A DNA stretch of 64,000 nucleotides from an uncultured Candidatus Saccharibacteria bacterium (GTDB lineage Bacteria; Patescibacteriota; Doudnabacteria; UBA920). The DNA lies in the NCBI GenBank assembly GCA_964372905.1, contig CAYJQY010000001.1, positions 72,848 through 136,847 of the forward strand, given 5' to 3'. Position 1 is the first letter of the stretch. Each line of letters begins with the position of its first letter. The notes below the pieces were generated by a model, which saw only the letters and a list, made by a program, of their open reading frames with translations, did no database searches and was not told where the DNA came from. Made by a program: the position numbers and the translations under genes. Shown in pieces: positions 43,871 to 52,089 of this stretch.

Positions 43871-44065
43871 TTATTGCTTTGGAATATAAGCTTTTGGGTC
43901 TTGGGTAAATTGCTCTTTACAATAATCAGAGCAGAACTTATATTGCACTCCTTCATGCTTATGGATAATTGAATCAGTCGGCCGCATACCGCAGACCGGA
44001 TCTTTTGACGGTGCTCCGCTGGCTACGCCTTTGTTTCTTTTGAACAATGAACTGAATACGCTCAT
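43871..44065 (-). CDS. YHS-domain metal-binding protein
   Basis: DPVCGMRPT...YKFCSDYCKEQF matches the YHS/TRASH consensus. 64 aa. Confidence 0.7.
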   Translation of the reverse strand: MSVFSSLFKRNKGVASGAPSKDPVCGMRPTDSIIHKHEGVQYKFCSDYCKEQFTQDPKAYIPKQ

Positions 44066-44085
44066 AAATTTTTGCCTCCACTGGA

Positions 44086-44346
44086 TTAATGATGCTCGTG
44101 GGTGGACGGTTTTTCAGCAGGACCCAACTGCCTCTCCGGGTCTTCTTCCTTGGATTCACCATGGCCGCGGCCGCCGAACATCATCAGAATGTGGGCCAGA
44201 ATAAATACGCCGATGATGGAAAACCACAGCCAATTCGAGGAAAAGCCGCCGCTTCTGCCTCCAAATAACAAAAATGCGAGCGGCAGCAGTAAGCAGCTGG
44301 CCATCATCCACCACATCATTTTGGAATCGTGATTGTTATGGTTCAT
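44086..44346 (-). CDS. small membrane protein with His-rich termini (DUF2933-like)
   Basis: MNHNNHD... two TM helices ...STHEHH. This architecture is common next to heavy-metal efflux genes. Confidence 0.5.
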   Translation of the reverse strand: MNHNNHDSKMMWWMMASCLLLPLAFLLFGGRSGGFSSNWLWFSIIGVFILAHILMMFGGRGHGESKEEDPERQLGPAEKPSTHEHH

Positions 44347-44387
44347 AGATAATGAACATTAATTGTGACCGAGCATAATAATCCTTT

Positions 44388-44657
44388 CTACCGTTCCGCC
44401 TTGATGCTGGAATTGTGCATCCAGACCATGTAGGCGCCGAAGATCCAGGCAATAACGGCGATCAGAATGAAGCCCCAGACCACGCTTCCCAAAGTTAGCC
44501 AAGTAAACCCGGGCAGGGTTTCAAACAAAGTGTGGTGCAATTCTATTCCTCTCTGGCTGCGCAGCGGCAGAAATCCGCCCATGAGGCAAAGGACGTAGAC
44601 GATTTCCGCTCCCAAAATACATTTCCAGACATATGATTGTAATGATAATCTTCCCAT
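44388..44657 (-). CDS. hypothetical small membrane protein
   Basis: 89-aa ORF with 2-3 TM helices. First gene downstream of the csoR-like gene. Confidence 0.4.
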   Translation of the reverse strand: MGRLSLQSYVWKCILGAEIVYVLCLMGGFLPLRSQRGIELHHTLFETLPGFTWLTLGSVVWGFILIAVIAWIFGAYMVWMHNSSIKAER

Positions 44658-44668
44658 ATATTTGCGAG

Positions 44669-44941
44669 CTACTTATTTGATAAAGTATAGACCTTAATCA
44701 GTTCCTTGATGGCTTTTTCATCTTCGCCCTTGCTCTGCATTTGGTGCTTGACGTGAGTGCGGAGATGATTTTCCAGGAGGAACGCATCCAGGCTCTTGAG
44801 CGACCTTTGGATAGAGAGCGACTGTTCCAACAAGGTGGGACAGTATACCTCTTTTTCAATAGCCTTAATAAGACCGTCTAGCTGTCCCCGGATGATTTTA
44901 CCCCGATGGATAGCGCGTTTTTTGAGTTTTTGGTCTACCAT
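44669..44941 (-). CDS. csoR: CsoR/RcnR-family metal-sensing transcriptional repressor
   Basis: 90-aa all-helical protein with Cys (YCPTLLEQ) and downstream His residues in the spacing of the CsoR C-H-C/H ligands. Heads the metal gene cluster. Confidence 0.65.
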   Translation of the reverse strand: MVDQKLKKRAIHRGKIIRGQLDGLIKAIEKEVYCPTLLEQSLSIQRSLKSLDAFLLENHLRTHVKHQMQSKGEDEKAIKELIKVYTLSNK

Positions 44942-44980
44942 AGTATTAGTTATCCCCAGATTAATTATAATTACATAGGT

Positions 44981-44996
44981 TATACCCCTATACCCT
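44981..44996. promoter_or_regulatory. direct repeat tataccc-c-tataccc upstream of csoR (candidate operator)
   Basis: G/C-tract-containing repeat located 40-55 bp upstream of the csoR start codon. Confidence 0.25.
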
Positions 44997-45192
44997 ATTT
45001 ATACTCTCCCCATCAAAATCTGTCAAGGGCGTTATTTACCACAGGCCACCATCACCTCGCAGTATCGAGCGGCTCGGATGGATCATTGGATGCTGTAAGC
45101 TGATACCAAAAGCATAGACTCAAACGCCTGAACCAAGCCGGCCTAGCGGCCAGTTTTGAATTACCGAGCAAACGTGTAATAATACTTGGTAT

Positions 45193-45705
45193 ATGCTCTC
45201 CAACAAAAACGAATACCTCACTTACGTAAGAAACTTCATTTTCGGCGTGGAAGATAGCCTGGTGTCCACCGTCGGACTCCTTTCCGGTATCGCAGTCACC
45301 AATGTCTCAACCAGCGCCATTGCTTTAACCGGAGTCGTCCTAATCTTTGTGGAGGCCTTTTCTATGGGCGTGGGCAGCTACCTTTCGGAACATTCCACGG
45401 CTAATTACGAAGGCAATGCCCCAGATACCCACCCCAGAACTTCAATTATTGCCGGAGTCATCATGCTGGCCTCATATTTAGCGGCAGGCATAGTTCCCCT
45501 GCTACCTTATCTAATTGCCCCGCGGCAGACAGCCTTCTGGCTGTCTATTGCCTCTTCGCTGGTTGCCCTGTTTATCCTCGGTGCTTTAAGCGCTACCATG
45601 CTGAAAAGCAAAATTTGGATCGGCGCCATCCGGATGTTCCTGCTGGGCGGCACGGCCATAGCCATTGGGATTACCGCAGGAAAAATCGTGGAGCGCCTAA
45701 GTTAG
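45193..45705 (+). CDS. VIT1/CCC1-family Fe2+/Mn2+ transporter
   Basis: FGVEDSLVSTVGLLSGIA (the G-x-x-D-G-L-V-S motif) and about 5 TM helices. 170 aa. Confidence 0.7.
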   Translation: MLSNKNEYLTYVRNFIFGVEDSLVSTVGLLSGIAVTNVSTSAIALTGVVLIFVEAFSMGVGSYLSEHSTANYEGNAPDTHPRTSIIAGVIMLASYLAAGIVPLLPYLIAPRQTAFWLSIASSLVALFILGALSATMLKSKIWIGAIRMFLLGGTAIAIGITAGKIVERLS

Positions 45706-45728: not shown

Positions 45729-46898
45729 TTAGCTATTTGCCACCACTCTGTTCCAAGTAGTTTTGACGATAGTGTCCAAATCGCTGTAGCGTGGCTCAAA
45801 CCCGAGCTCGCGCTTAATTTTGGAATTGTCGGCTACGGTGGCCGCCGCATCGCCGGGGCGGCGCGCGCCCATTTCAATGGGAATCATCCGGTTAGTTATT
45901 TCCGCAACCGCCCGAATCATTTCAGCCACGCTGCAGCCTTTGCCCGTACCAACATTATAAACATTATGGTTCTGCTCTATTCCCAGCTTCTCTAAAGCCA
46001 AAATATGAGCATCGGCAATATCTAAAACATGAATGTAATCGCGGATGCAGGTGCCGTCAAAAGTATTATAATCGTTGCCGAAAATGATGATCTTTTCGCG
46101 CGCGCCGCGGGCAACATCCATTACAATAGAAACTAAATGGGAATTAGTGTGCGTGTCGCCCAAGTCGCCCTCAAAAGAAGCGCCGCAGACATTAAAGTAG
46201 CGCAAGGTCGTGGTCTCGAAATCCAAGTACATGGCGTAATACTGTACCAGCATTTCAGCCAAAAGTTTGGAAAACCCATAGGGATTATTAGGCTGCGGCG
46301 GCGTGTTTTCCGGGATAGGGATATTGTCCTGCTCCCCATACACCGCCCCGGTAGAAGAAAAAATCAATTTTTTCACTCCGGCGGCGTTCATGGCCTGAAG
46401 CAGGACAGCGGTATTGATAAAATTATTTTGAAGATATTCGGCTGGTTTAGCCACGGATTCCTCAACCTCCAGGCTGGCGGCAAAATGCATGACAGCATCA
46501 ATTTTATTGTCAGAAAAAATTCGTTCCAGTAATTTCATATCCCCAACATCACCTTCATAAAAAACCGCCTGCTCCGGAACGAATTCACGGCGGCCCGTAG
46601 ACAAATTATCGACAATTACTACCTTATAGCCCTTATCAAGCAACTGCCGCACTGTGTGGGAGCCAATATAGCCCGCGCCGCCGGTGACTAAAATATGCTC
46701 CGGTTTCTTAGACGCCGCCCGGCTTTCCCCAGCTGGCTTCAGTTTGGATTGTCCGGCCTGCACAACCTGCTCCAGCAAATCGTTATATTTCTGAATGTTC
46801 AAAACCACGGCCTCGGACTTGCCGCCCATGCTCAAAATTATCCCCCCGCCGCGCAGATTAACTTCTTTGATTAACTCTTCCAAGTAACTGGAATCCAT
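45729..46898 (-). CDS. galE: UDP-glucose 4-epimerase with fused N-terminal Phd/YefM-like domain
   Basis: Residues ~70-389 are GalE (ILVTGGAGYIGSH, YxxxK, NVGTG). Residues 1-65 (SSYLEELIKEVNLRGGGIILSMGGKSEAVVLNIQKYNDLLEQ) resemble the Phd/YefM antitoxin fold. Read-through is continuous, with no internal start codon before ILVTGG. Confidence 0.8.
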   Translation of the reverse strand: MDSSYLEELIKEVNLRGGGIILSMGGKSEAVVLNIQKYNDLLEQVVQAGQSKLKPAGESRAASKKPEHILVTGGAGYIGSHTVRQLLDKGYKVVIVDNLSTGRREFVPEQAVFYEGDVGDMKLLERIFSDNKIDAVMHFAASLEVEESVAKPAEYLQNNFINTAVLLQAMNAAGVKKLIFSSTGAVYGEQDNIPIPENTPPQPNNPYGFSKLLAEMLVQYYAMYLDFETTTLRYFNVCGASFEGDLGDTHTNSHLVSIVMDVARGAREKIIIFGNDYNTFDGTCIRDYIHVLDIADAHILALEKLGIEQNHNVYNVGTGKGCSVAEMIRAVAEITNRMIPIEMGARRPGDAAATVADNSKIKRELGFEPRYSDLDTIVKTTWNRVVANS

Positions 46899-47170
46899 AA
46901 AAGATTATTAAACAAACGATAAATACAAATGATAAACAGCTTATAACCAATATATAAGCTGTGGTTTTGTTTGGATGTTCGATTTGTGAGCCGCAACCGG
47001 CCGGAAGAACTTTTGGTCAAATTCCCGGTCAATAGAAGCTAAGGACATCATACCATGCCCAAATGAAAAAGCAAGCCAGATATGCACAACCAAACACTAC
47101 ACTCCGCGCCATCGCGAGGACGGCGCGGAGTAGCCAAACTGGAATCACATTGCCCGGAATGTAAATTTAT

Positions 47171-50100
47171 TTACTTCCAGATAAAGTCGATAATCTGCTT
47201 ACCGCGACGGCGCATCAGGGCGAAACCGCCGGTCAGGAGTCCGGCAAAGCCTATAGCCGCCATGCCGCTGCCGGCGCCGGTCTTTGGCGCGATAAAGCGC
47301 GGCTGGCCGGGAATCGGAGGAATGGTAATAGTCACAGTATTGCCGTAGGTGTTGGTCATCACAAAGGTCTGCTGGGCGGACAGGAAGAATTTGACCCGGG
47401 CGCGGAAGCTCTTGGAAATTGAACCGCCAGCCGGAATATCGACACTGGAGAAAGTAATCGTATTCCCGCTCAAGCTTCCGCCGCCCCTGTCAACCATGTC
47501 AGCGAAAGGCAGGACGCCGGATAGATCATCGGTAATGGTAAAATTATTGGCCCGGGCATTGCCTGTGTTAGTCACGGTCAAAGTGTAGGTGATGAAATCC
47601 TCGCGGGCAGCCAGAGTAGTGGTCGCGTCAACATTCTTGGTATCATTATGCGCGCGTTTGCTGAAAATTAAGTTAGGGTTGCCCGTAGTGGTGGTGGTGG
47701 TATCGTTGTCAACAAAGACGAAAGCATCATCTTCGATCCGGCTCACGCCGTCGCCGGTGGCGCGGGCAATGTTCTGGATCGTCCTGGAAGAAGTCGAATT
47801 GACCCTGGCTTCAAACCTGATTCGACGCGACTCGCCGCTTCTAAGATCACCAAGATCCAGATCAATCCTGTTGCCGCTGGAGTTGTCATCATCCAAATCA
47901 TCAGCGTCGATGCTGTCGGTATCCACGTCTAAGCTGCTGGGCACCGAATCGGTCACCCGGACGTTATCTACCGTCTCGCTTCCGGTATTTCTCACCCTGA
48001 TTTCAAACTGGACCTCGTCATCGTTATCGGCATTAACGCTATTGCGCAGCGAAGTGCTCTGGGTTATGTTGCGGACCTGTTTTTCGATAGACAGTTCGCC
48101 GAAGCCGTCACCTATAAAGCGGTTGATAAATACGGTCGCGGAATCGCTTAACGAACCGACGCCGCTGCCGAATACTGTTGCGGTGTTGATAATGACAGTC
48201 TGGCTCTGGCCCGAAGCACCAAAAGCGCGGGCTTGGAAAGTCAAGACGCGGCTCTGGCCCGAAGTCATAGTGCCGACACTGATGAAATTGTTAATGAAGC
48301 TGTCTGAAATTGTTTGGCCATCGAGGCGTCCCGATCCGCTTACTAGCGTAAGGTGGCTCGGCAGGTTTTCCGACAACTGCACATTATTAACGGTACCGTT
48401 GTTGGCCGTCACCACAACCCGATATTCCACGCGCTCGCCGTCCTCGGCTGTGGTCTGTTTGGCAAAGCTCGTGCCGCGGGTCTGGTTGCGAACGTGTTTG
48501 GTGATGTTCAGATTGCCAGCATTCTGGTTGATGCTAACTCCGCAAATATCGCTGGTGCCGCTGCTCGTTACGGTAACGTTGCGCTGACCAGAGGTAGAAT
48601 ACGAAGTATTGAAAGTCGAACCGGAACCGGATGAAGGGTTGCCGCTCGGAGCAGACCAGGAGAAAACGCCGTTGCCGCCCGAGGCGGAGAAGAACATGGT
48701 TTGATTAACATCGCCCGACTGGAAACTAGGCGTGCATTCTACCGCATTGACGATTTGATTAACTTGAACTCCACAGGTATCGCTGGTGCCGCTGCTTGAT
48801 ACGGTCACGGTTTTTGATCCGGAAGTGGAATAGGAAGTGCTGAATTGGGAGCTTGATCCCGAAGAAGGGTTGCCGCTCGGAGCAGACCAAGAGAAAACGC
48901 CGTTGCCGCCCGAGGCAAAAAAGTTAGCCGTTTGTCCCACATTCACGCTCTGGAAGCTTGGCGAGCAGTCTACTGGGTTAACAACAATTTGATTGACCTG
49001 CACCGCGCAGGTATCGTTGGTACCATTACTCGTAACAGTTACAATCTTCTGTCCCGAGGTCGAATACTTAGTCTGGAAACTAGAGCTGGATCCGCTGGAG
49101 GGGATGCCTCCGGGAGCAGACCAGGAGAAAACGCCGTTGCCGCCCGAGGCGGAAAAGAATACCGTTTCATTGATATCCGCGCTCTGGAAGCTTGGCGAGC
49201 AGTCTACCGGATTCGGCTGAGGAATCTGATTCTGTTGATTCTTAAAGACCACTGTAGCACACTGCGGGCCGCTGAAAACTTCCACCACGCCGCCTGCCGG
49301 GGTCACCAACAATTGCTGCCAGCCGGACGGAACTGATTCAGTTACCGCGTGCGTGCCCGCGGAAACATTATTGAAGCGGGCATGACCGCCCGAATCATTC
49401 ACTGCGGTTGCGCCGCCGTCCAAGCGGAAAATGAATTGCGCCACCGGGGTAATTGGCTGGCCTTGGGTATTAAAGGTTTCTTTGATTACGTCGATACAGC
49501 CCACCACTTGGGGCGGTTGGTTGACGTTCACAGCACAGGTATCGCTCAACCCGCCGCTGCTTACGGTCACGGTTTTTTGACCCGGGCTATTGTAAGAGGC
49601 TGAAAAGTTGGAGCCTGAACCAGACGAGGGGTTGCCGCCCGGAGCTGACCAGGAAAAGACACCATTACCGCCCGAGGCCGTAAACAAAGCCGGCACGTTC
49701 ATGTCAACAGTCTGATTATGGGGGGCGCAAATAACCTGCTGAATCGGCGGACTCTTCACGCGCATCTTGAATTTCACAAAACCGCTGAATTCAAAGCAGG
49801 CCCGCAGGTCCCCCAGAGAAAATTCCCCGTTGGAGTCTATGCTAAAACCGCTCTGCACCAGGTTGCCTCGGAAGTCAAAGCGCTGGCCGCTGCCAGGAAT
49901 GATTTCTAAACTCTCGTTGGCATTGGTATGGATAAAAATTGAGTCGCGGATCGTGGCGGCATTATCGGCGCGCAGAGCAATTTTAACCCGGTGCTCTGCG
50001 GCAGCGGCCGTATCAATATTCGTTCCAACTGCAACATTAAACGCTGTAGTAACATTGGGATCGCCATTTACAATAGCCCCGTTATGGAAATACACCAACA

Positions 50101-50416
50101 CGTCAACAACATCGCCGGCATGGGCCGTAACACCTGCCGCTTGCTCGGCATCGTTCCTGGGGTATTGGCCGTTTTCAAGCTTAGCCCGGACCAAAGGAAA
50201 ATCCACACAGGCCAAACCTGGATCGCCGTAAACAATGGGAAACGGATTGAATACCGGGGTTTGAAATTCCTGACAGTCTTCGGCCAAGGCGTTATCTGAA
50301 CGCTGCGGCGCAAAAGCAAAAATGGCGCCGACAGCCAATAAAATCAGCCCCACTTTCCAATTAAAGCGAGGAAAAATCGAACGGAATTTTGACCAAAATG
50401 CTCGCTGGGTGGACAT
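47171..50416 (-). CDS. giant repeat-containing cell-surface protein with C-terminal sortase-type sorting signal
   Basis: N-terminal signal/TM. About five ~75-aa repeats (..CSPSFQS..FFSASGGNGVFSWSAPGGNPSSGS..TVTVTSSGT.DTC.VQVNQ). About three DUF11-like 'conserved repeat' domains. C-terminus IAPKTG followed by a hydrophobic segment and RRRGK. Confidence 0.8.
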   Translation of the reverse strand: MSTQRAFWSKFRSIFPRFNWKVGLILLAVGAIFAFAPQRSDNALAEDCQEFQTPVFNPFPIVYGDPGLACVDFPLVRAKLENGQYPRNDAEQAAGVTAHAGDVVDVLVYFHNGAIVNGDPNVTTAFNVAVGTNIDTAAAAEHRVKIALRADNAATIRDSIFIHTNANESLEIIPGSGQRFDFRGNLVQSGFSIDSNGEFSLGDLRACFEFSGFVKFKMRVKSPPIQQVICAPHNQTVDMNVPALFTASGGNGVFSWSAPGGNPSSGSGSNFSASYNSPGQKTVTVSSGGLSDTCAVNVNQPPQVVGCIDVIKETFNTQGQPITPVAQFIFRLDGGATAVNDSGGHARFNNVSAGTHAVTESVPSGWQQLLVTPAGGVVEVFSGPQCATVVFKNQQNQIPQPNPVDCSPSFQSADINETVFFSASGGNGVFSWSAPGGIPSSGSSSSFQTKYSTSGQKIVTVTSNGTNDTCAVQVNQIVVNPVDCSPSFQSVNVGQTANFFASGGNGVFSWSAPSGNPSSGSSSQFSTSYSTSGSKTVTVSSSGTSDTCGVQVNQIVNAVECTPSFQSGDVNQTMFFSASGGNGVFSWSAPSGNPSSGSGSTFNTSYSTSGQRNVTVTSSGTSDICGVSINQNAGNLNITKHVRNQTRGTSFAKQTTAEDGERVEYRVVVTANNGTVNNVQLSENLPSHLTLVSGSGRLDGQTISDSFINNFISVGTMTSGQSRVLTFQARAFGASGQSQTVIINTATVFGSGVGSLSDSATVFINRFIGDGFGELSIEKQVRNITQSTSLRNSVNADNDDEVQFEIRVRNTGSETVDNVRVTDSVPSSLDVDTDSIDADDLDDDNSSGNRIDLDLGDLRSGESRRIRFEARVNSTSSRTIQNIARATGDGVSRIEDDAFVFVDNDTTTTTTGNPNLIFSKRAHNDTKNVDATTTLAAREDFITYTLTVTNTGNARANNFTITDDLSGVLPFADMVDRGGGSLSGNTITFSSVDIPAGGSISKSFRARVKFFLSAQQTFVMTNTYGNTVTITIPPIPGQPRFIAPKTGAGSGMAAIGFAGLLTGGFALMRRRGKQIIDFIWK

Positions 50417-51477: not shown

Positions 51478-52089
51478 TCATTCTAAATTTCTGATAACGC
51501 CCACGACCTTGCCCTGAATGGACCATTCTTCTTTGGGATAGATGTTGGGATAGTCAGGGTTTTCGGCTTTTAAGTAGGCGCGCGTCTTAACGTAAATTAA
51601 CCGCTTCACCGTGGCCTCGTCATGCAGCAGCGCCACAACAATATCTTTATTCTTGGCCTCGCGCGTCGGCCGCACAATGACCAGGTCCCCATCAAAAATC
51701 CCGGCCTGGATCATACTGTCGCCGCGCACTTTAAGCAGAAACACGTCGCGCCTGCCCCGCACCAGCGTCTGCGGCAAATTGATCCACTCTTCAATCTGCT
51801 CCTCGGCCCAGTGCGGACTGCCCGCCTGAATGGCCCCCAAGATCGGCACACGAATCAAACCTTTTTCCAAACTTTCGTTCAAACTGTTCAACACGGTGAT
51901 GCCTCGCGCCTTACCATTGGTCTCAATAAAACCCTGCGCTTCCAAGGCATCAAGCAACTTAGCGATGGCATTCTTGGACTTAACGCCAAGCTGCCGCGCC
52001 ATTTCCGACAACGAAGGCGGCAGATTATGCTCGCGCACCTGCTGGACAATAAATTTAAGCAGCTGTTTTTGTCGATCGGTTAAACTCAT
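51478..52089 (-). CDS. lexA: LexA repressor (SOS regulon, S24 peptidase)
   Basis: N-terminal winged HTH. Cleavage and catalytic region (VRGDSMIQAGIFDGDLVIV, K in the C-terminal domain). 203 aa. Confidence 0.9.
   Translation of the reverse strand: MSLTDRQKQLLKFIVQQVREHNLPPSLSEMARQLGVKSKNAIAKLLDALEAQGFIETNGKARGITVLNSLNESLEKGLIRVPILGAIQAGSPHWAEEQIEEWINLPQTLVRGRRDVFLLKVRGDSMIQAGIFDGDLVIVRPTREAKNKDIVVALLHDEATVKRLIYVKTRAYLKAENPDYPNIYPKEEWSIQGKVVGVIRNLE

What the first reader, a model, noticed from the sequence alone, without database searches (positions are those of the whole stretch)
45729..46898. GalE fused to an N-terminal Phd/YefM-like (antitoxin-fold) domain
The UDP-glucose 4-epimerase core begins at ILVTGGAGYIG around residue 70, with no in-frame ATG, GTG or TTG immediately before it. 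The ORF instead continues upstream through about 65 residues (SSYLEELIKEVNLRGGGIILSMGGKSEAVVLNIQKYNDLLEQ). Those residues match the Phd/YefM pattern (..[25 protein letters not shown]..) closely. A toxin-antitoxin antitoxin fold fused to a sugar epimerase is unusual. It could be a domesticated antitoxin used as a dimerisation or DNA-binding module, or an assembly or frameshift artefact that has fused two genes.
Basis: seen in the sequence. Interest (0 to 1): 0.55.

Follow-up and report, generated by a model that had tools for sequence, protein, structure and literature searches.

The report
GalE with domesticated antitoxin-fold N-terminal handle
A sugar-nucleotide epimerase (GalE) of an ultra-small Patescibacteria bacterium carries a conserved 47-residue N-terminal domain derived from the Phd/YefM antitoxin fold; the domain has lost every antitoxin-specific feature and probably serves as a dimerisation or docking handle, which makes it a moderately interesting case of a toxin-antitoxin part reused in a housekeeping enzyme.

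Summary
The ORF (45729-46898, minus strand, 389 aa) is real, and the fusion is not an artefact. Residues 69-383 are a bona fide GalE (TIGR01179, 419 bits against a cutoff of 262).

**N-terminal module.** Residues 1-47 fold confidently (pLDDT 92) into helix-strand-strand-helix.
- Pfam PF02604 is the recurrent hit in 42 of 49 orthologues. The window protein itself scores below Pfam's threshold (19.6 against 29.8 bits).
- A profile of the module aligns with classical Phd/YefM antitoxins (hhalign 98.8%).

**What the module lacks.**
- Strand beta1 is absent.
- The YefM DNA-contact residues are absent or replaced.
- The toxin-binding tail is replaced by a 4-35 aa variable linker.
- No toxin gene is adjacent.

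**Conservation.**
- The fusion is in frame in 31 of 32 Patescibacteria species genomes and in about 55 metagenomic proteins (45-72% identity).
- It has a conserved start, and its codon variation is that of coding sequence.
- Synteny is conserved: sortase-type surface protein, a hairpin, the fusion GalE, and in most loci a family-2 glycosyltransferase.

**Best reading.** The module is a domesticated dimerisation or adaptor handle on a working epimerase. The architecture is shown. The role of the handle is inferred. This is a new variant of known kinds, of moderate interest.

The parts
45729..46898 (-). Complete ORF, 389 aa plus stop: Phd/YefM-like module, linker and GalE
   Evidence: ORF list and sequence. 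Full-length homologues cover 97-100% of it. The AF2 model of the whole protein has mean pLDDT 93.7.
46758..46898 (-). N-terminal module, residues 1-47: helix 4-15, strand 19-24, strand 27-33, helix 35-47. It is a beta1-less Phd/YefM-like domain.
46695..46757 (-). Linker, residues 48-68. It is low in complexity, rich in K/T/Q/A/S, and varies in length among orthologues (4-35 aa).
   Evidence: Alignment and linker table. pLDDT falls to about 54 for residues 51-60 in the full-length model.
45732..46694 (-). GalE core, residues 69-389: GGAGYIG NAD-binding motif and the Y207-x3-K211 catalytic motif
   Evidence: TIGR01179 gives 419.4 bits against a cutoff of 262.3. The motifs are invariant in 56 sequences. 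The best solved relative is 2c20, E=1.9e-90.
46936..46962 (.). Perfect 10-bp inverted repeat ACAGCTTATA-(7)-TATAAGCTGT, 38 nt upstream of the ATG. It is a conserved CAGC/GCTG-core hairpin of this intergenic region, a feature of the locus and not tied to the module.
   Evidence: It is present upstream of the gene in 30 of 33 loci. Base pairs flanking the core covary. It also occurs in the module-less locus L036. No Rfam family matches.
47100..47132 (-). Terminator-like GC-rich hairpin directly after the upstream surface-protein gene
47171..50416 (-). Syntenic upstream neighbour: a 1081-aa surface protein (DUF11/CLIPPER and PKD repeats) with a C-terminal APKTG motif, a hydrophobic segment and a basic tail (sortase-type sorting signal)
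   Evidence: Pfam scan. Homologous upstream ORFs with the same C-terminal signal occur in more than 20 loci. A sortase gene lies nearby in L001.

Best explanation
The gene encodes one real, conserved polypeptide with three parts.

- **GalE core.** A catalytically intact UDP-hexose 4-epimerase (residues 69-389).
- **Linker.** A flexible, poorly conserved linker (residues 48-68).
- **Module.** A 47-residue N-terminal module descended from the N-terminal domain of Phd/YefM type II antitoxins.

**What the module keeps.** It keeps the part of the fold that makes the antitoxin dimer: the hydrophobic face of helix alpha1, strands beta2 and beta3, and the following helix.

**What the module has lost.**
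- The edge strand beta1.
- The DNA-reading residues.
- The toxin-neutralising tail.
- Any toxin partner.

**Proposed mechanism.** The module most likely works as a tethered dimerisation or docking handle. Two modules would pair through beta3-beta3', as in YefM. That pairing could reinforce the GalE homodimer or cross-link GalE dimers. It could also dock the enzyme to a partner, for example through the now-exposed beta2 edge. The setting is a cell-surface glycosylation neighbourhood: a sortase-type surface protein upstream and, in most genomes, a family-2 glycosyltransferase downstream.

**Shown:** the architecture, the fold assignment, its conservation under selection, and the loss of antitoxin features.
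**Inferred:** dimerisation or docking as the role, and the link to surface glycosylation.
For: **The fusion is real and conserved**
- About 55 full-length homologues, 45-72% identical.
- The module is in frame with GalE in 31 of 32 GTDB species genomes, all Patescibacteria.
- The start MD(N)xYL is conserved, with ATG in 30 of 33 loci. Only 2 of 34 proteins have a Met at the canonical GalE start.
- pN/pS is 0.35 in the module and 0.35 in the core. In module codons not fixed by the search pattern, entropy per codon position is 1.02, 0.64 and 1.59.
- In a neighbour-joining tree of the cores, 47 of 54 fusion proteins fall in one split. The only non-fusion sequence inside that split is a fragment cut by its contig end.

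**The GalE core is intact**
- TIGR01179 gives 419 bits. The GGAGYIG, Y207 and K211 motifs are invariant.

**The module has the Phd/YefM fold**
- AF2 gives pLDDT 92.5.
- PF02604 hits 42 of 49 modules, best E=1.4e-6.
- The module profile, searched against 1.84 billion proteins, retrieves classical antitoxins. Of the 55 short hits, 47 match PF02604, down to E=1.4e-19.
- hhalign gives 98.8%.

**Dimer elements are kept and antitoxin elements are lost**
- YefM dimerises by beta3-beta3' hydrogen bonds plus hydrophobic residues of alpha1 and beta2, and beta1 is the outer edge strand. Its DNA contacts are N5, Y6, S7, R10, Q11, K14 and T32 (PMC7544224).
- The module begins at about YefM residue 8. The position equivalent to R10 is N, Q, T or S in 33 of 33 sequences.
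- The linker varies from 4 to 35 aa.
- No toxin gene is adjacent in the window or in the related loci, and the window holds no second Phd-like ORF.

**The same beta1-less module occurs as a stand-alone small protein**
- This fits an autonomous oligomerisation unit.
Against: - No tool here could test oligomerisation. Only single chains could be predicted and no model coordinates were available, so the role of the handle is an inference from retained and lost features.
- GalE is already a homodimer (established knowledge), so the benefit of a second dimerisation element is not obvious.
- The invariant R16 and the common K27 might still contact a nucleic acid or another ligand.
- The window protein's own Pfam score is below threshold.
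- The antitoxin set used for hhalign was retrieved with the module profile, so that E-value is inflated.
- The glycosyltransferase neighbour is missing in this window.
Confidence: 0.6

Rival explanations
1. Moonlighting autoregulator. The Phd/YefM-like module binds DNA, for instance the inverted repeat 38 nt upstream of the ATG, so the enzyme represses its own gene as antitoxins do.
For: - Phd/YefM N-terminal domains are operator-binding domains (PMC7544224).
- A perfect 10-bp inverted repeat lies just upstream. A CAGC/GCTG-core repeat is conserved at that place in 30 of 33 loci.
- R16 is invariant in the module.
Against: - YefM's DNA contacts N5, Y6 and S7 have no counterpart because beta1 is absent. 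The equivalent of R10 is never basic.
- The spacing between the arms of the repeat varies from 2 to 34 nt. The flanking pairs covary (18 double changes against 7.9 +/- 2.2 in shuffles, 0 of 500 shuffles reaching the observed value). That is the behaviour of a hairpin or terminator, not of a fixed-geometry operator.
- The same hairpin precedes a GalE without the module in L036.
Confidence: 0.1
2. Recruitment adaptor, a variant of the main reading. The module does not mainly self-associate. It docks GalE onto another protein, such as the neighbouring glycosyltransferase, the sortase or surface-protein machinery, or a stand-alone beta1-less paralogue. Docking could be by heterodimerisation or by accepting a partner strand where beta1 is missing.
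For: - Synteny with a sortase-type surface protein and a ~240-aa GT2 is conserved.
- beta1 is the edge strand next to beta2 in YefM, so its absence leaves an open edge.
- Related beta1-less modules exist as separate small proteins.
Against: - No partner has been identified.
- The window itself lacks the GT2 neighbour.
- The known stand-alone paralogues sit in the str operon, not near this gene.
- Nothing here distinguishes this reading from homodimerisation.
Confidence: 0.2
3. Functional fused antitoxin. The module still neutralises a toxin encoded elsewhere in the genome.
For: The fold family is that of antitoxins.
Against: - The C-terminal toxin-binding segment that defines antitoxin activity in Phd/YefM is replaced by a non-conserved linker.
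- No toxin gene is adjacent in the window or in more than 30 loci.
- No TA toxin family appears among the families listed for the 68 small ORFs of the window. Only the best 25 of 49 families were shown.
Confidence: 0.03
4. Artefact or chance. The ORF is either a frameshift or assembly fusion of two genes, or an N-terminal extension that only resembles Phd/YefM by chance.
For: The Pfam score of the window protein is sub-threshold. A profile search against PDB sequences found nothing.
Against: - The same in-frame architecture occurs in independent assemblies from ENA, JGI, NCBI and Logan and in 31 of 32 species genomes.
- Purifying selection acts on the module.
- Sequence, profile and fold evidence converge on the same family.
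Confidence: 0.04

Closest known systems
Bacterial UDP-glucose 4-epimerase GalE (for example Bacillus anthracis 2c20, E. coli 1udc)
   Same: Residues 69-383 align end to end. The match to 2c20 has E=1.9e-90 and the match to TIGR01179 gives 419 bits. The NAD-binding and YxxxK motifs are intact.
   Different: Solved GalEs and typical GalEs (about 320-340 aa) begin directly at the first Rossmann strand. This protein has 68 extra N-terminal residues that form a separate folded module and a linker.
Phd/YefM type II antitoxins (Pfam PF02604; E. coli and S. aureus YefM, phage P1 Phd, M. tuberculosis RelB1 and RelJ)
   Same: The alpha1-beta2-beta3-alpha2 topology is shared, as is the family-typical motif (G-K-P-x-A-V-V-L-x-x-x-x-Y-x-x-L). 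They are the best fold matches and the only recurrent Pfam hit.
   Different: This module has no beta1, no conserved DNA-contact residues, no toxin-binding C-terminal region and no toxin partner. It is fused to an enzyme. The window protein scores below the Pfam gathering threshold.
Yeast Gal10 (GalE fused to galactose mutarotase; PDB 1z45)
   Same: It is a GalE core joined to a second domain in one polypeptide. It appears among the solved homologues.
   Different: In Gal10 the extra domain is a C-terminal enzyme of the same pathway. Here it is a small, non-enzymatic, N-terminal domain from a toxin-antitoxin family.
Stand-alone beta1-less Phd-like small proteins of uncultured bacteria (P0148, P0161, P0164, P0166, P0168, P0170, P0195)
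   Same: They carry the same beta1-less module starting at the initiator Met (M-helix-GG-strand-strand-Y..L helix) and were retrieved by the module profile.
   Different: They are not fused to GalE. They carry an acidic, disordered tail that ends in (D/G)(L/I)P(F/L). At least two are encoded between fusA and tuf.

Membership tests
UDP-glucose 4-epimerase GalE (NCBIfam TIGR01179, extended SDR) | Score above the curated equivalog cutoff over the full model | tested here: met
   419.4 bits against a cutoff of 262.3; protein residues 69-383 match model positions 2-323 of 332.
UDP-glucose 4-epimerase GalE (NCBIfam TIGR01179, extended SDR) | N-terminal Gly-rich NAD-binding motif GxxGxxG | tested here: met
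   G73, G74, A75, G76, Y77 and G79 are invariant and I78 is at least 90% conserved in 56 aligned sequences.
UDP-glucose 4-epimerase GalE (NCBIfam TIGR01179, extended SDR) | Catalytic Ser/Thr and the YxxxK motif | tested here: met
   Y207 and K211 are invariant. The F-S181-S182-T183 stretch is conserved. It aligns with FSST of 2c20.
UDP-glucose 4-epimerase GalE (NCBIfam TIGR01179, extended SDR) | Epimerase activity and substrate range (UDP-Glc/Gal against UDP-GlcNAc/GalNAc) | not testable with these tools
   This needs an enzyme assay. The gatekeeper residue was not rigorously mapped here.
Phd/YefM type II antitoxin (Pfam PF02604) | Pfam gathering score (29.8 bits) | tested here: not met
   The window module scores 19.6 bits, E=7.9e-4. 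Among 49 orthologous modules, 42 hit the family at E<=1, with a best E of 1.4e-6.
Phd/YefM type II antitoxin (Pfam PF02604) | Core fold alpha1-beta2-beta3-alpha2 of the N-terminal domain | tested here: met
Phd/YefM type II antitoxin (Pfam PF02604) | N-terminal strand beta1 (edge of the six-stranded dimer sheet) | tested here: not met
   The Pfam match starts at profile position 13. hhalign aligns module columns 5-47 with template columns 17-59. In-frame stop codons lie two codons upstream of the ATG. The start is conserved in 33 loci.
Phd/YefM type II antitoxin (Pfam PF02604) | Operator-contacting residues (YefM N5, Y6, S7, R10, Q11, K14, T32; PMC7544224) | tested here: not met
   Residues 5-7 have no counterpart. 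The equivalent of R10 (module position 3) is N, Q, T or S in 33 of 33 sequences.
Phd/YefM type II antitoxin (Pfam PF02604) | C-terminal toxin-binding and toxin-neutralising segment | tested here: not met
   After helix 35-47 comes a 4-35 aa linker with no conserved sequence, and then GalE.
Phd/YefM type II antitoxin (Pfam PF02604) | Adjacent cognate toxin gene (YoeB, Doc, RelE or ParE class) in a two-gene operon | tested here: not met
   The neighbours are a surface protein upstream and VIT1 (window) or GT2 (other loci) downstream. No toxin family appears among the Pfam families listed for the small ORFs of the window (the list was truncated).
Phd/YefM type II antitoxin (Pfam PF02604) | Homodimerisation through beta3-beta3' and alpha1/beta2 hydrophobic packing | not testable with these tools
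   Only single-chain prediction was available. The residues at the equivalent positions (L6, L9, I10, V/L21, L22, V31-V32-L33) are conserved.

The most novel reading that the evidence does not exclude
The beta1-less Phd/YefM module is a portable oligomerisation or adaptor domain of Patescibacteria and related uncultured bacteria that has left toxin-antitoxin biology altogether. In one lineage it tethers GalE, perhaps into higher-order assemblies or onto the cell-surface glycosylation machinery. In another it forms a small dimeric protein with an acidic tail and a hydrophobic D-L/I-P-F tip, encoded between fusA and tuf. This would be a so far undescribed family of exapted antitoxin domains with housekeeping roles in reduced genomes.
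Probability: 0.3. Interest if true: 0.6.

Novelty: new variant of a known kind. Interest (0 to 1): 0.42.

Why it matters
- **Reuse of antitoxin domains.** Antitoxin domains are usually discussed only within toxin-antitoxin modules. Here one has been stripped of its DNA-binding and toxin-binding parts, fused to a core metabolic enzyme, and kept under purifying selection across at least 32 species of Patescibacteria.
- **Annotation.** Public records call these proteins simply 'UDP-glucose 4-epimerase GalE'. Domain-based TA-finding pipelines could miscount them as antitoxins.
- **Biology.** Patescibacteria have tiny genomes and depend on their cell surface for an epibiotic lifestyle. An enzyme supplying UDP-sugars sits next to a sortase-anchored surface protein and a glycosyltransferase and carries a tethering handle. 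That hints at spatial organisation of surface glycosylation, which can be tested with recombinant proteins.

Tried and rejected
- **PDB sequence searches.** phmmer with the 68-residue N-terminus and hmmsearch with the module profile gave only spurious hits: designed repeat proteins and an inositol monophosphatase. The link to Phd/YefM came from Pfam, the large profile search and the fold searches instead.
- **Degenerate DNA pattern.** My first pattern had one N too many and matched nothing, not even the window. The corrected pattern found 32 genomes.
- **AFDB fold library.** It was not available.
- **Rfam.** It has no family for the 46850-47200 intergenic region.
- **Literature.** Searches for a YefM-epimerase link, or for antitoxin-domain fusions in Patescibacteria, found nothing relevant.
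- **Operator idea.** I considered the upstream palindrome as an operator for the module (note 2). I rejected this because of the variable spacing, the covariation and its presence at a module-less GalE.
- **Split version.** A 75-aa ORF overlaps the start of a module-less Patescibacteria GalE in L038. I considered it as a 'split' form of the fusion, but it is a hydrophobic membrane peptide.
- **Secondary loss.** The module-less Doudnabacteria GalE P0057 begins MDNKKQILVTGG and sits in similar synteny, which suggested secondary loss of the module. The NJ tree does not place it inside the main fusion clade, so I do not claim this.
- **P0189.** This 1569-aa protein with six 'matches' to the module is a CARDB repeat protein, so the hits are spurious.
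Full report
**1. The observation**

The ORF 45729..46898 on the minus strand is present exactly as described: ATG start, 389 codons, TAA stop.
- Two in-frame TAA codons lie two codons upstream of the ATG, so the reading frame cannot start earlier.
- Residues 69-317 match Pfam Epimerase (E=7e-63). Residues 69-383 match the NCBIfam GalE equivalog TIGR01179 with 419.4 bits against a curated cutoff of 262.3.
- Between codon 47 and the core (I69-L-V-T-G-G) there is no in-frame ATG, GTG or TTG. The nearest candidates are GTG46 and TTG41, both inside the last helix of the N-terminal module.
- The 68 N-terminal residues alone hit only one Pfam family, PF02604 (PhdYeFM_antitox). The hit has E=7.9e-4 and 19.6 bits, below the gathering score of 29.8, and covers profile positions 13-65 of 74.

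**2. Not an artefact: the fusion is conserved and translated**

A search of 5.8 billion proteins returned about 55 proteins of 368-423 aa. They cover 97-100% of the query at 45-72% identity and come from ENA, JGI, NCBI and Logan assemblies. Where they are named, the names are 'UDP-glucose 4-epimerase GalE' of Candidatus Doudnabacteria or the Patescibacteria group.

Their alignment shows three parts:
- a conserved N-terminal block, MDxxYLxELIxExxxRGGGxxLxxxxKPxAVVLxIxKYNxL;
- a linker of 4-35 residues with no conserved sequence, rich in K, T, Q, A and S;
- the GalE core.

A degenerate DNA pattern written from the module found 32 species-representative genomes, all labelled as Patescibacteria lineages. 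In 31 of them the module is in frame with GalE. The 32nd runs off its contig end.

Further evidence that the module is translated and under selection:
- The initiator is conserved (ATG in 30 of 33 loci; D2 in 29 of 33). Only 2 of 34 proteins have a Met at the canonical GalE start.
- Pairwise pN/pS is 0.35 in the module and 0.35 in the first 44 codons of the core. Synonymous sites are near saturation, so this ratio is rough.
- In the 32 module codons not constrained by my search pattern, entropy per codon position is 1.02, 0.64 and 1.59, which is the signature of a translated sequence.
- In a neighbour-joining tree of the cores, 47 of 54 fusion proteins fall on one side of a single split. The only other sequence on that side is a contig-truncated fragment. 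Seven divergent fusion proteins, whose modules are also divergent, fall outside it.

No orthologue shows two separate genes. The frameshift or assembly explanation is refuted.

**3. What the N-terminal module is**

AlphaFold2 predicts the module confidently, both within the full protein and alone.
- Full protein: mean pLDDT 93.7. Blocks for residues 1-40 score 91-96, and the linker falls to about 54.
- Module alone: pLDDT 92.5, with helix 4-15, strand 19-24, strand 27-33 and helix 35-47.

Fold searches point to one family.
- Foldseek ranks the same proteins first (probability up to 0.95, query TM up to 0.68). Its E-values are not significant, as can be expected for so short a query.

Sequence evidence agrees.
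- Of 49 orthologous modules scanned one by one, 42 hit PF02604 (best E=1.4e-6), and no other family recurs.
- A profile of the module searched against 1.84 billion representative proteins found 81 proteins at E<=1e-3. Besides GalE fusions, these are short proteins, 47 of 55 of which match PF02604, down to E=1.4e-19.
- hhalign of the module profile against 26 of those classical antitoxins gives 98.8% probability. The set was retrieved with the module profile, so the E-value of 5e-17 is inflated. The register is informative: module columns 5-47 align with template columns 17-59.

The homology assignment is well supported. The module corresponds to alpha1-beta2-beta3-alpha2 of the antitoxin N-terminal domain and lacks the first roughly 12 residues, which form beta1.

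**4. What it has lost and what it has kept**

According to the S. aureus YoeB-YefM-DNA structures (PMC7544224):
- The YefM dimer has a sheet in the order beta1-beta2-beta3-beta3'-beta2'-beta1'.
- It is held together by beta3-beta3' hydrogen bonds, by hydrophobic residues of the helices and beta2, and by the helix after beta3.
- DNA is read by N5, Y6, S7, R10, Q11, K14 and T32.
- The toxin is bound by the C-terminal helices and strand.

In the GalE module:
- YefM residues 1-7 have no counterpart.
- The position equivalent to R10 is N, Q, T or S in all 33 genomic sequences.
- The toxin-binding part is replaced by the variable linker.
- The conserved hydrophobic positions (L6, L9, I10, L22, V31-V32-L33, Y38, L41) are the structural and dimer-forming ones.

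No toxin gene is adjacent.
- In the window the neighbours are a 1081-aa surface protein upstream and a VIT1-family membrane protein on the other strand downstream. A CsoR-type repressor and a YHS-domain protein lie further on.
- The same holds in more than 30 related loci.
- The module profile finds no second copy in the six-frame translation of the window.
- A Pfam scan of 68 small ORFs lists no TA toxin family, although only the best 25 of 49 families were shown.

The module therefore fails the tests for being a working antitoxin or a YefM-like repressor. It retains what is needed to pair with a second copy.

**5. Context**

The gene sits in a conserved neighbourhood.
- Upstream, in the same direction, is a large protein (700-1450 aa) with DUF11/CLIPPER, PKD and MG-type repeats. 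It is homologous across loci and ends in (A/V)AP(K/T)TG, a hydrophobic segment and a basic tail, which is a sortase-type sorting signal. A sortase gene is nearby in L001.
- Downstream, in at least 14 loci, is a conserved ~240-aa family-2 glycosyltransferase. It is absent at this place in the window.
- LexA lies a few kb upstream in the window and in L003.

This suggests, but does not show, that the epimerase supplies UDP-sugars for cell-surface glycosylation.

**6. The upstream palindrome**

A perfect 10-bp inverted repeat lies at 46936-46962, 38 nt before the ATG.
- A repeat with an invariant CAGC...GCTG core, an A-rich 5' flank and a T-rich 3' flank occurs 21-292 nt upstream of the gene in 30 of 33 loci. 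About 6 would be expected by chance from my own estimate.
- Loop length varies from 2 to 34 nt.
- The pairs flanking the core covary: 18 double changes against 7.9 +/- 2.2 in shuffles, with 0 of 500 shuffles reaching the observed value. Register shifts destroy the pairing.
- Other terminator-like hairpins in the window have unrelated stems.
- Rfam has no match.
- The same kind of hairpin precedes a Doudnabacteria GalE that lacks the module, in a similar neighbourhood in L036.

I therefore read it as a conserved terminator or attenuator-type hairpin of this intergenic region, not as an operator for the module. Why its core sequence is conserved remains unexplained.

**7. Mechanism proposed, and rivals**

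Most likely (about 0.6, with the adaptor variant counted separately at about 0.2), the module is a domesticated dimerisation or docking handle tethered to a working GalE by a flexible linker.
- Shown: the architecture, the fold family, selection on the module, and the loss of antitoxin features.
- Inferred: self-association through beta3-beta3', and any consequence for GalE assembly or localisation.

The rivals are:
- DNA-binding autoregulator: about 0.1. Disfavoured by the missing contact residues and by the behaviour of the palindrome.
- Antitoxin for a distant toxin: about 0.03.
- Artefact or chance resemblance: about 0.04.

**8. Comparison with what is known, and novelty**

The core is an ordinary GalE. 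Its best solved relative is B. anthracis 2c20, E=1.9e-90. None of the solved GalEs aligns with the module. Their matches all start at the first residues of the core (residues 1-3 of the core query, and position 44 for 1gy8), and some chains carry short unaligned N-terminal leads. Yeast Gal10 is a GalE fusion of a different kind, with a C-terminal mutarotase.

The module belongs to the Phd/YefM fold family but not to the functional class of antitoxins. Public annotations of the homologues mention only GalE. One cluster (P0019) carries a precomputed PF02604 hit, so the architecture is latent in databases. Two literature searches found no description of it.

I rate it a new variant of known kinds, of moderate interest.

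**9. Side observations**

- The module profile also retrieves small proteins that start with the same beta1-less module and continue with an acidic, disordered tail ending in (D/G)(L/I)P(F/L). Two divergent members are encoded between fusA and tuf.
- Other unusual architectures turned up: two tandem Phd/YefM domains fused to a xylose-isomerase-like TIM barrel (P0171), and the module fused to a degenerate SDR that lacks the Gly-rich motif (P0182).

Noticed in passing
window 46936-46962 (and upstream of the orthologous gene in L001-L036): A conserved hairpin with an invariant CAGC...GCTG core, an A-rich 5' flank, a T-rich 3' flank and a loop of 2-34 nt lies between the surface-protein gene and the GalE gene in 30 of 33 loci. 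The flanking base pairs covary. Other terminator-like hairpins of the window have unrelated stems, and no Rfam family matches. It is also present at a module-less GalE (L036 4840-4872). It is probably a terminator or attenuator. The reason its core sequence is conserved is unexplained.
   Followed up: partly
L040 4001-4423; L041 232-654; L043 550-915 (proteins P0170, P0161; also P0148, P0164, P0166, P0168, P0195): These small proteins (about 100-175 aa) begin with the same beta1-less Phd-like module. They continue with a strongly acidic, low-complexity tail ending in (D/G)(L/I)P(F/L), reminiscent of the SSB C-terminal tip or of ribosomal stalk tails. Two divergent members are encoded between fusA (EF-G) and tuf (EF-Tu) in the str operon.
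   Followed up: partly
window 47171-50416 (-): This 1081-aa repeat-rich surface protein (DUF11/CLIPPER, PKD, MG10-like) ends in APKTG, a hydrophobic segment and RRRGK, which is a sortase-type sorting signal. Homologues with the same C-terminus sit directly upstream of the fusion GalE in more than 20 genomes. L001 has a sortase gene next to it.
   Followed up: partly
L001 7364-8083 and the equivalent position in L010, L013, L014, L015, L016, L019, L022, L024, L025, L026, L028, L030 and L032: A conserved ~240-aa family-2 glycosyltransferase lies directly downstream of the fusion GalE in most loci, often followed by a Peptidase_S8 gene. This neighbour is missing in the window, where a VIT1-family gene on the opposite strand follows instead.
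   Followed up: partly
protein P0171 (414 aa): Two tandem, full-length Phd/YefM domains (PF02604, 87 bits) are fused to a xylose-isomerase-like TIM barrel (AP_endonuc_2). This is another case of an antitoxin fold fused to an enzyme.
   Followed up: no
protein P0182 (401 aa): The beta1-less module is fused to a very divergent epimerase-like SDR domain that lacks the GGAGYIG motif. It may be a pseudo-enzyme relative of the fusion.
   Followed up: no
L036 5001-6020 (protein P0057): This module-less Doudnabacteria GalE sits in a similar neighbourhood (large protein upstream; APH, GT2 and Peptidase_S8 downstream) and starts MDNKKQILVTGG. The start echoes the MDN start of the fusion proteins. A neighbour-joining tree does not place it inside the main fusion clade, so loss of the module is not established.
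   Followed up: partly
window 43871-45705: A small metal-related cluster lies just downstream of the GalE gene: a CsoR-type metal-sensitive repressor (44669-44941, -), two small hydrophobic ORFs, a YHS-domain protein (43871-44065, -) and a VIT1-family transporter (45193-45705, +).
   Followed up: no
window 51478-52089 (-): A LexA repressor gene lies a few kb upstream of the surface-protein/GalE pair. The same arrangement (LexA, then the large surface protein, then the fusion GalE) is seen in L003.
   Followed up: no
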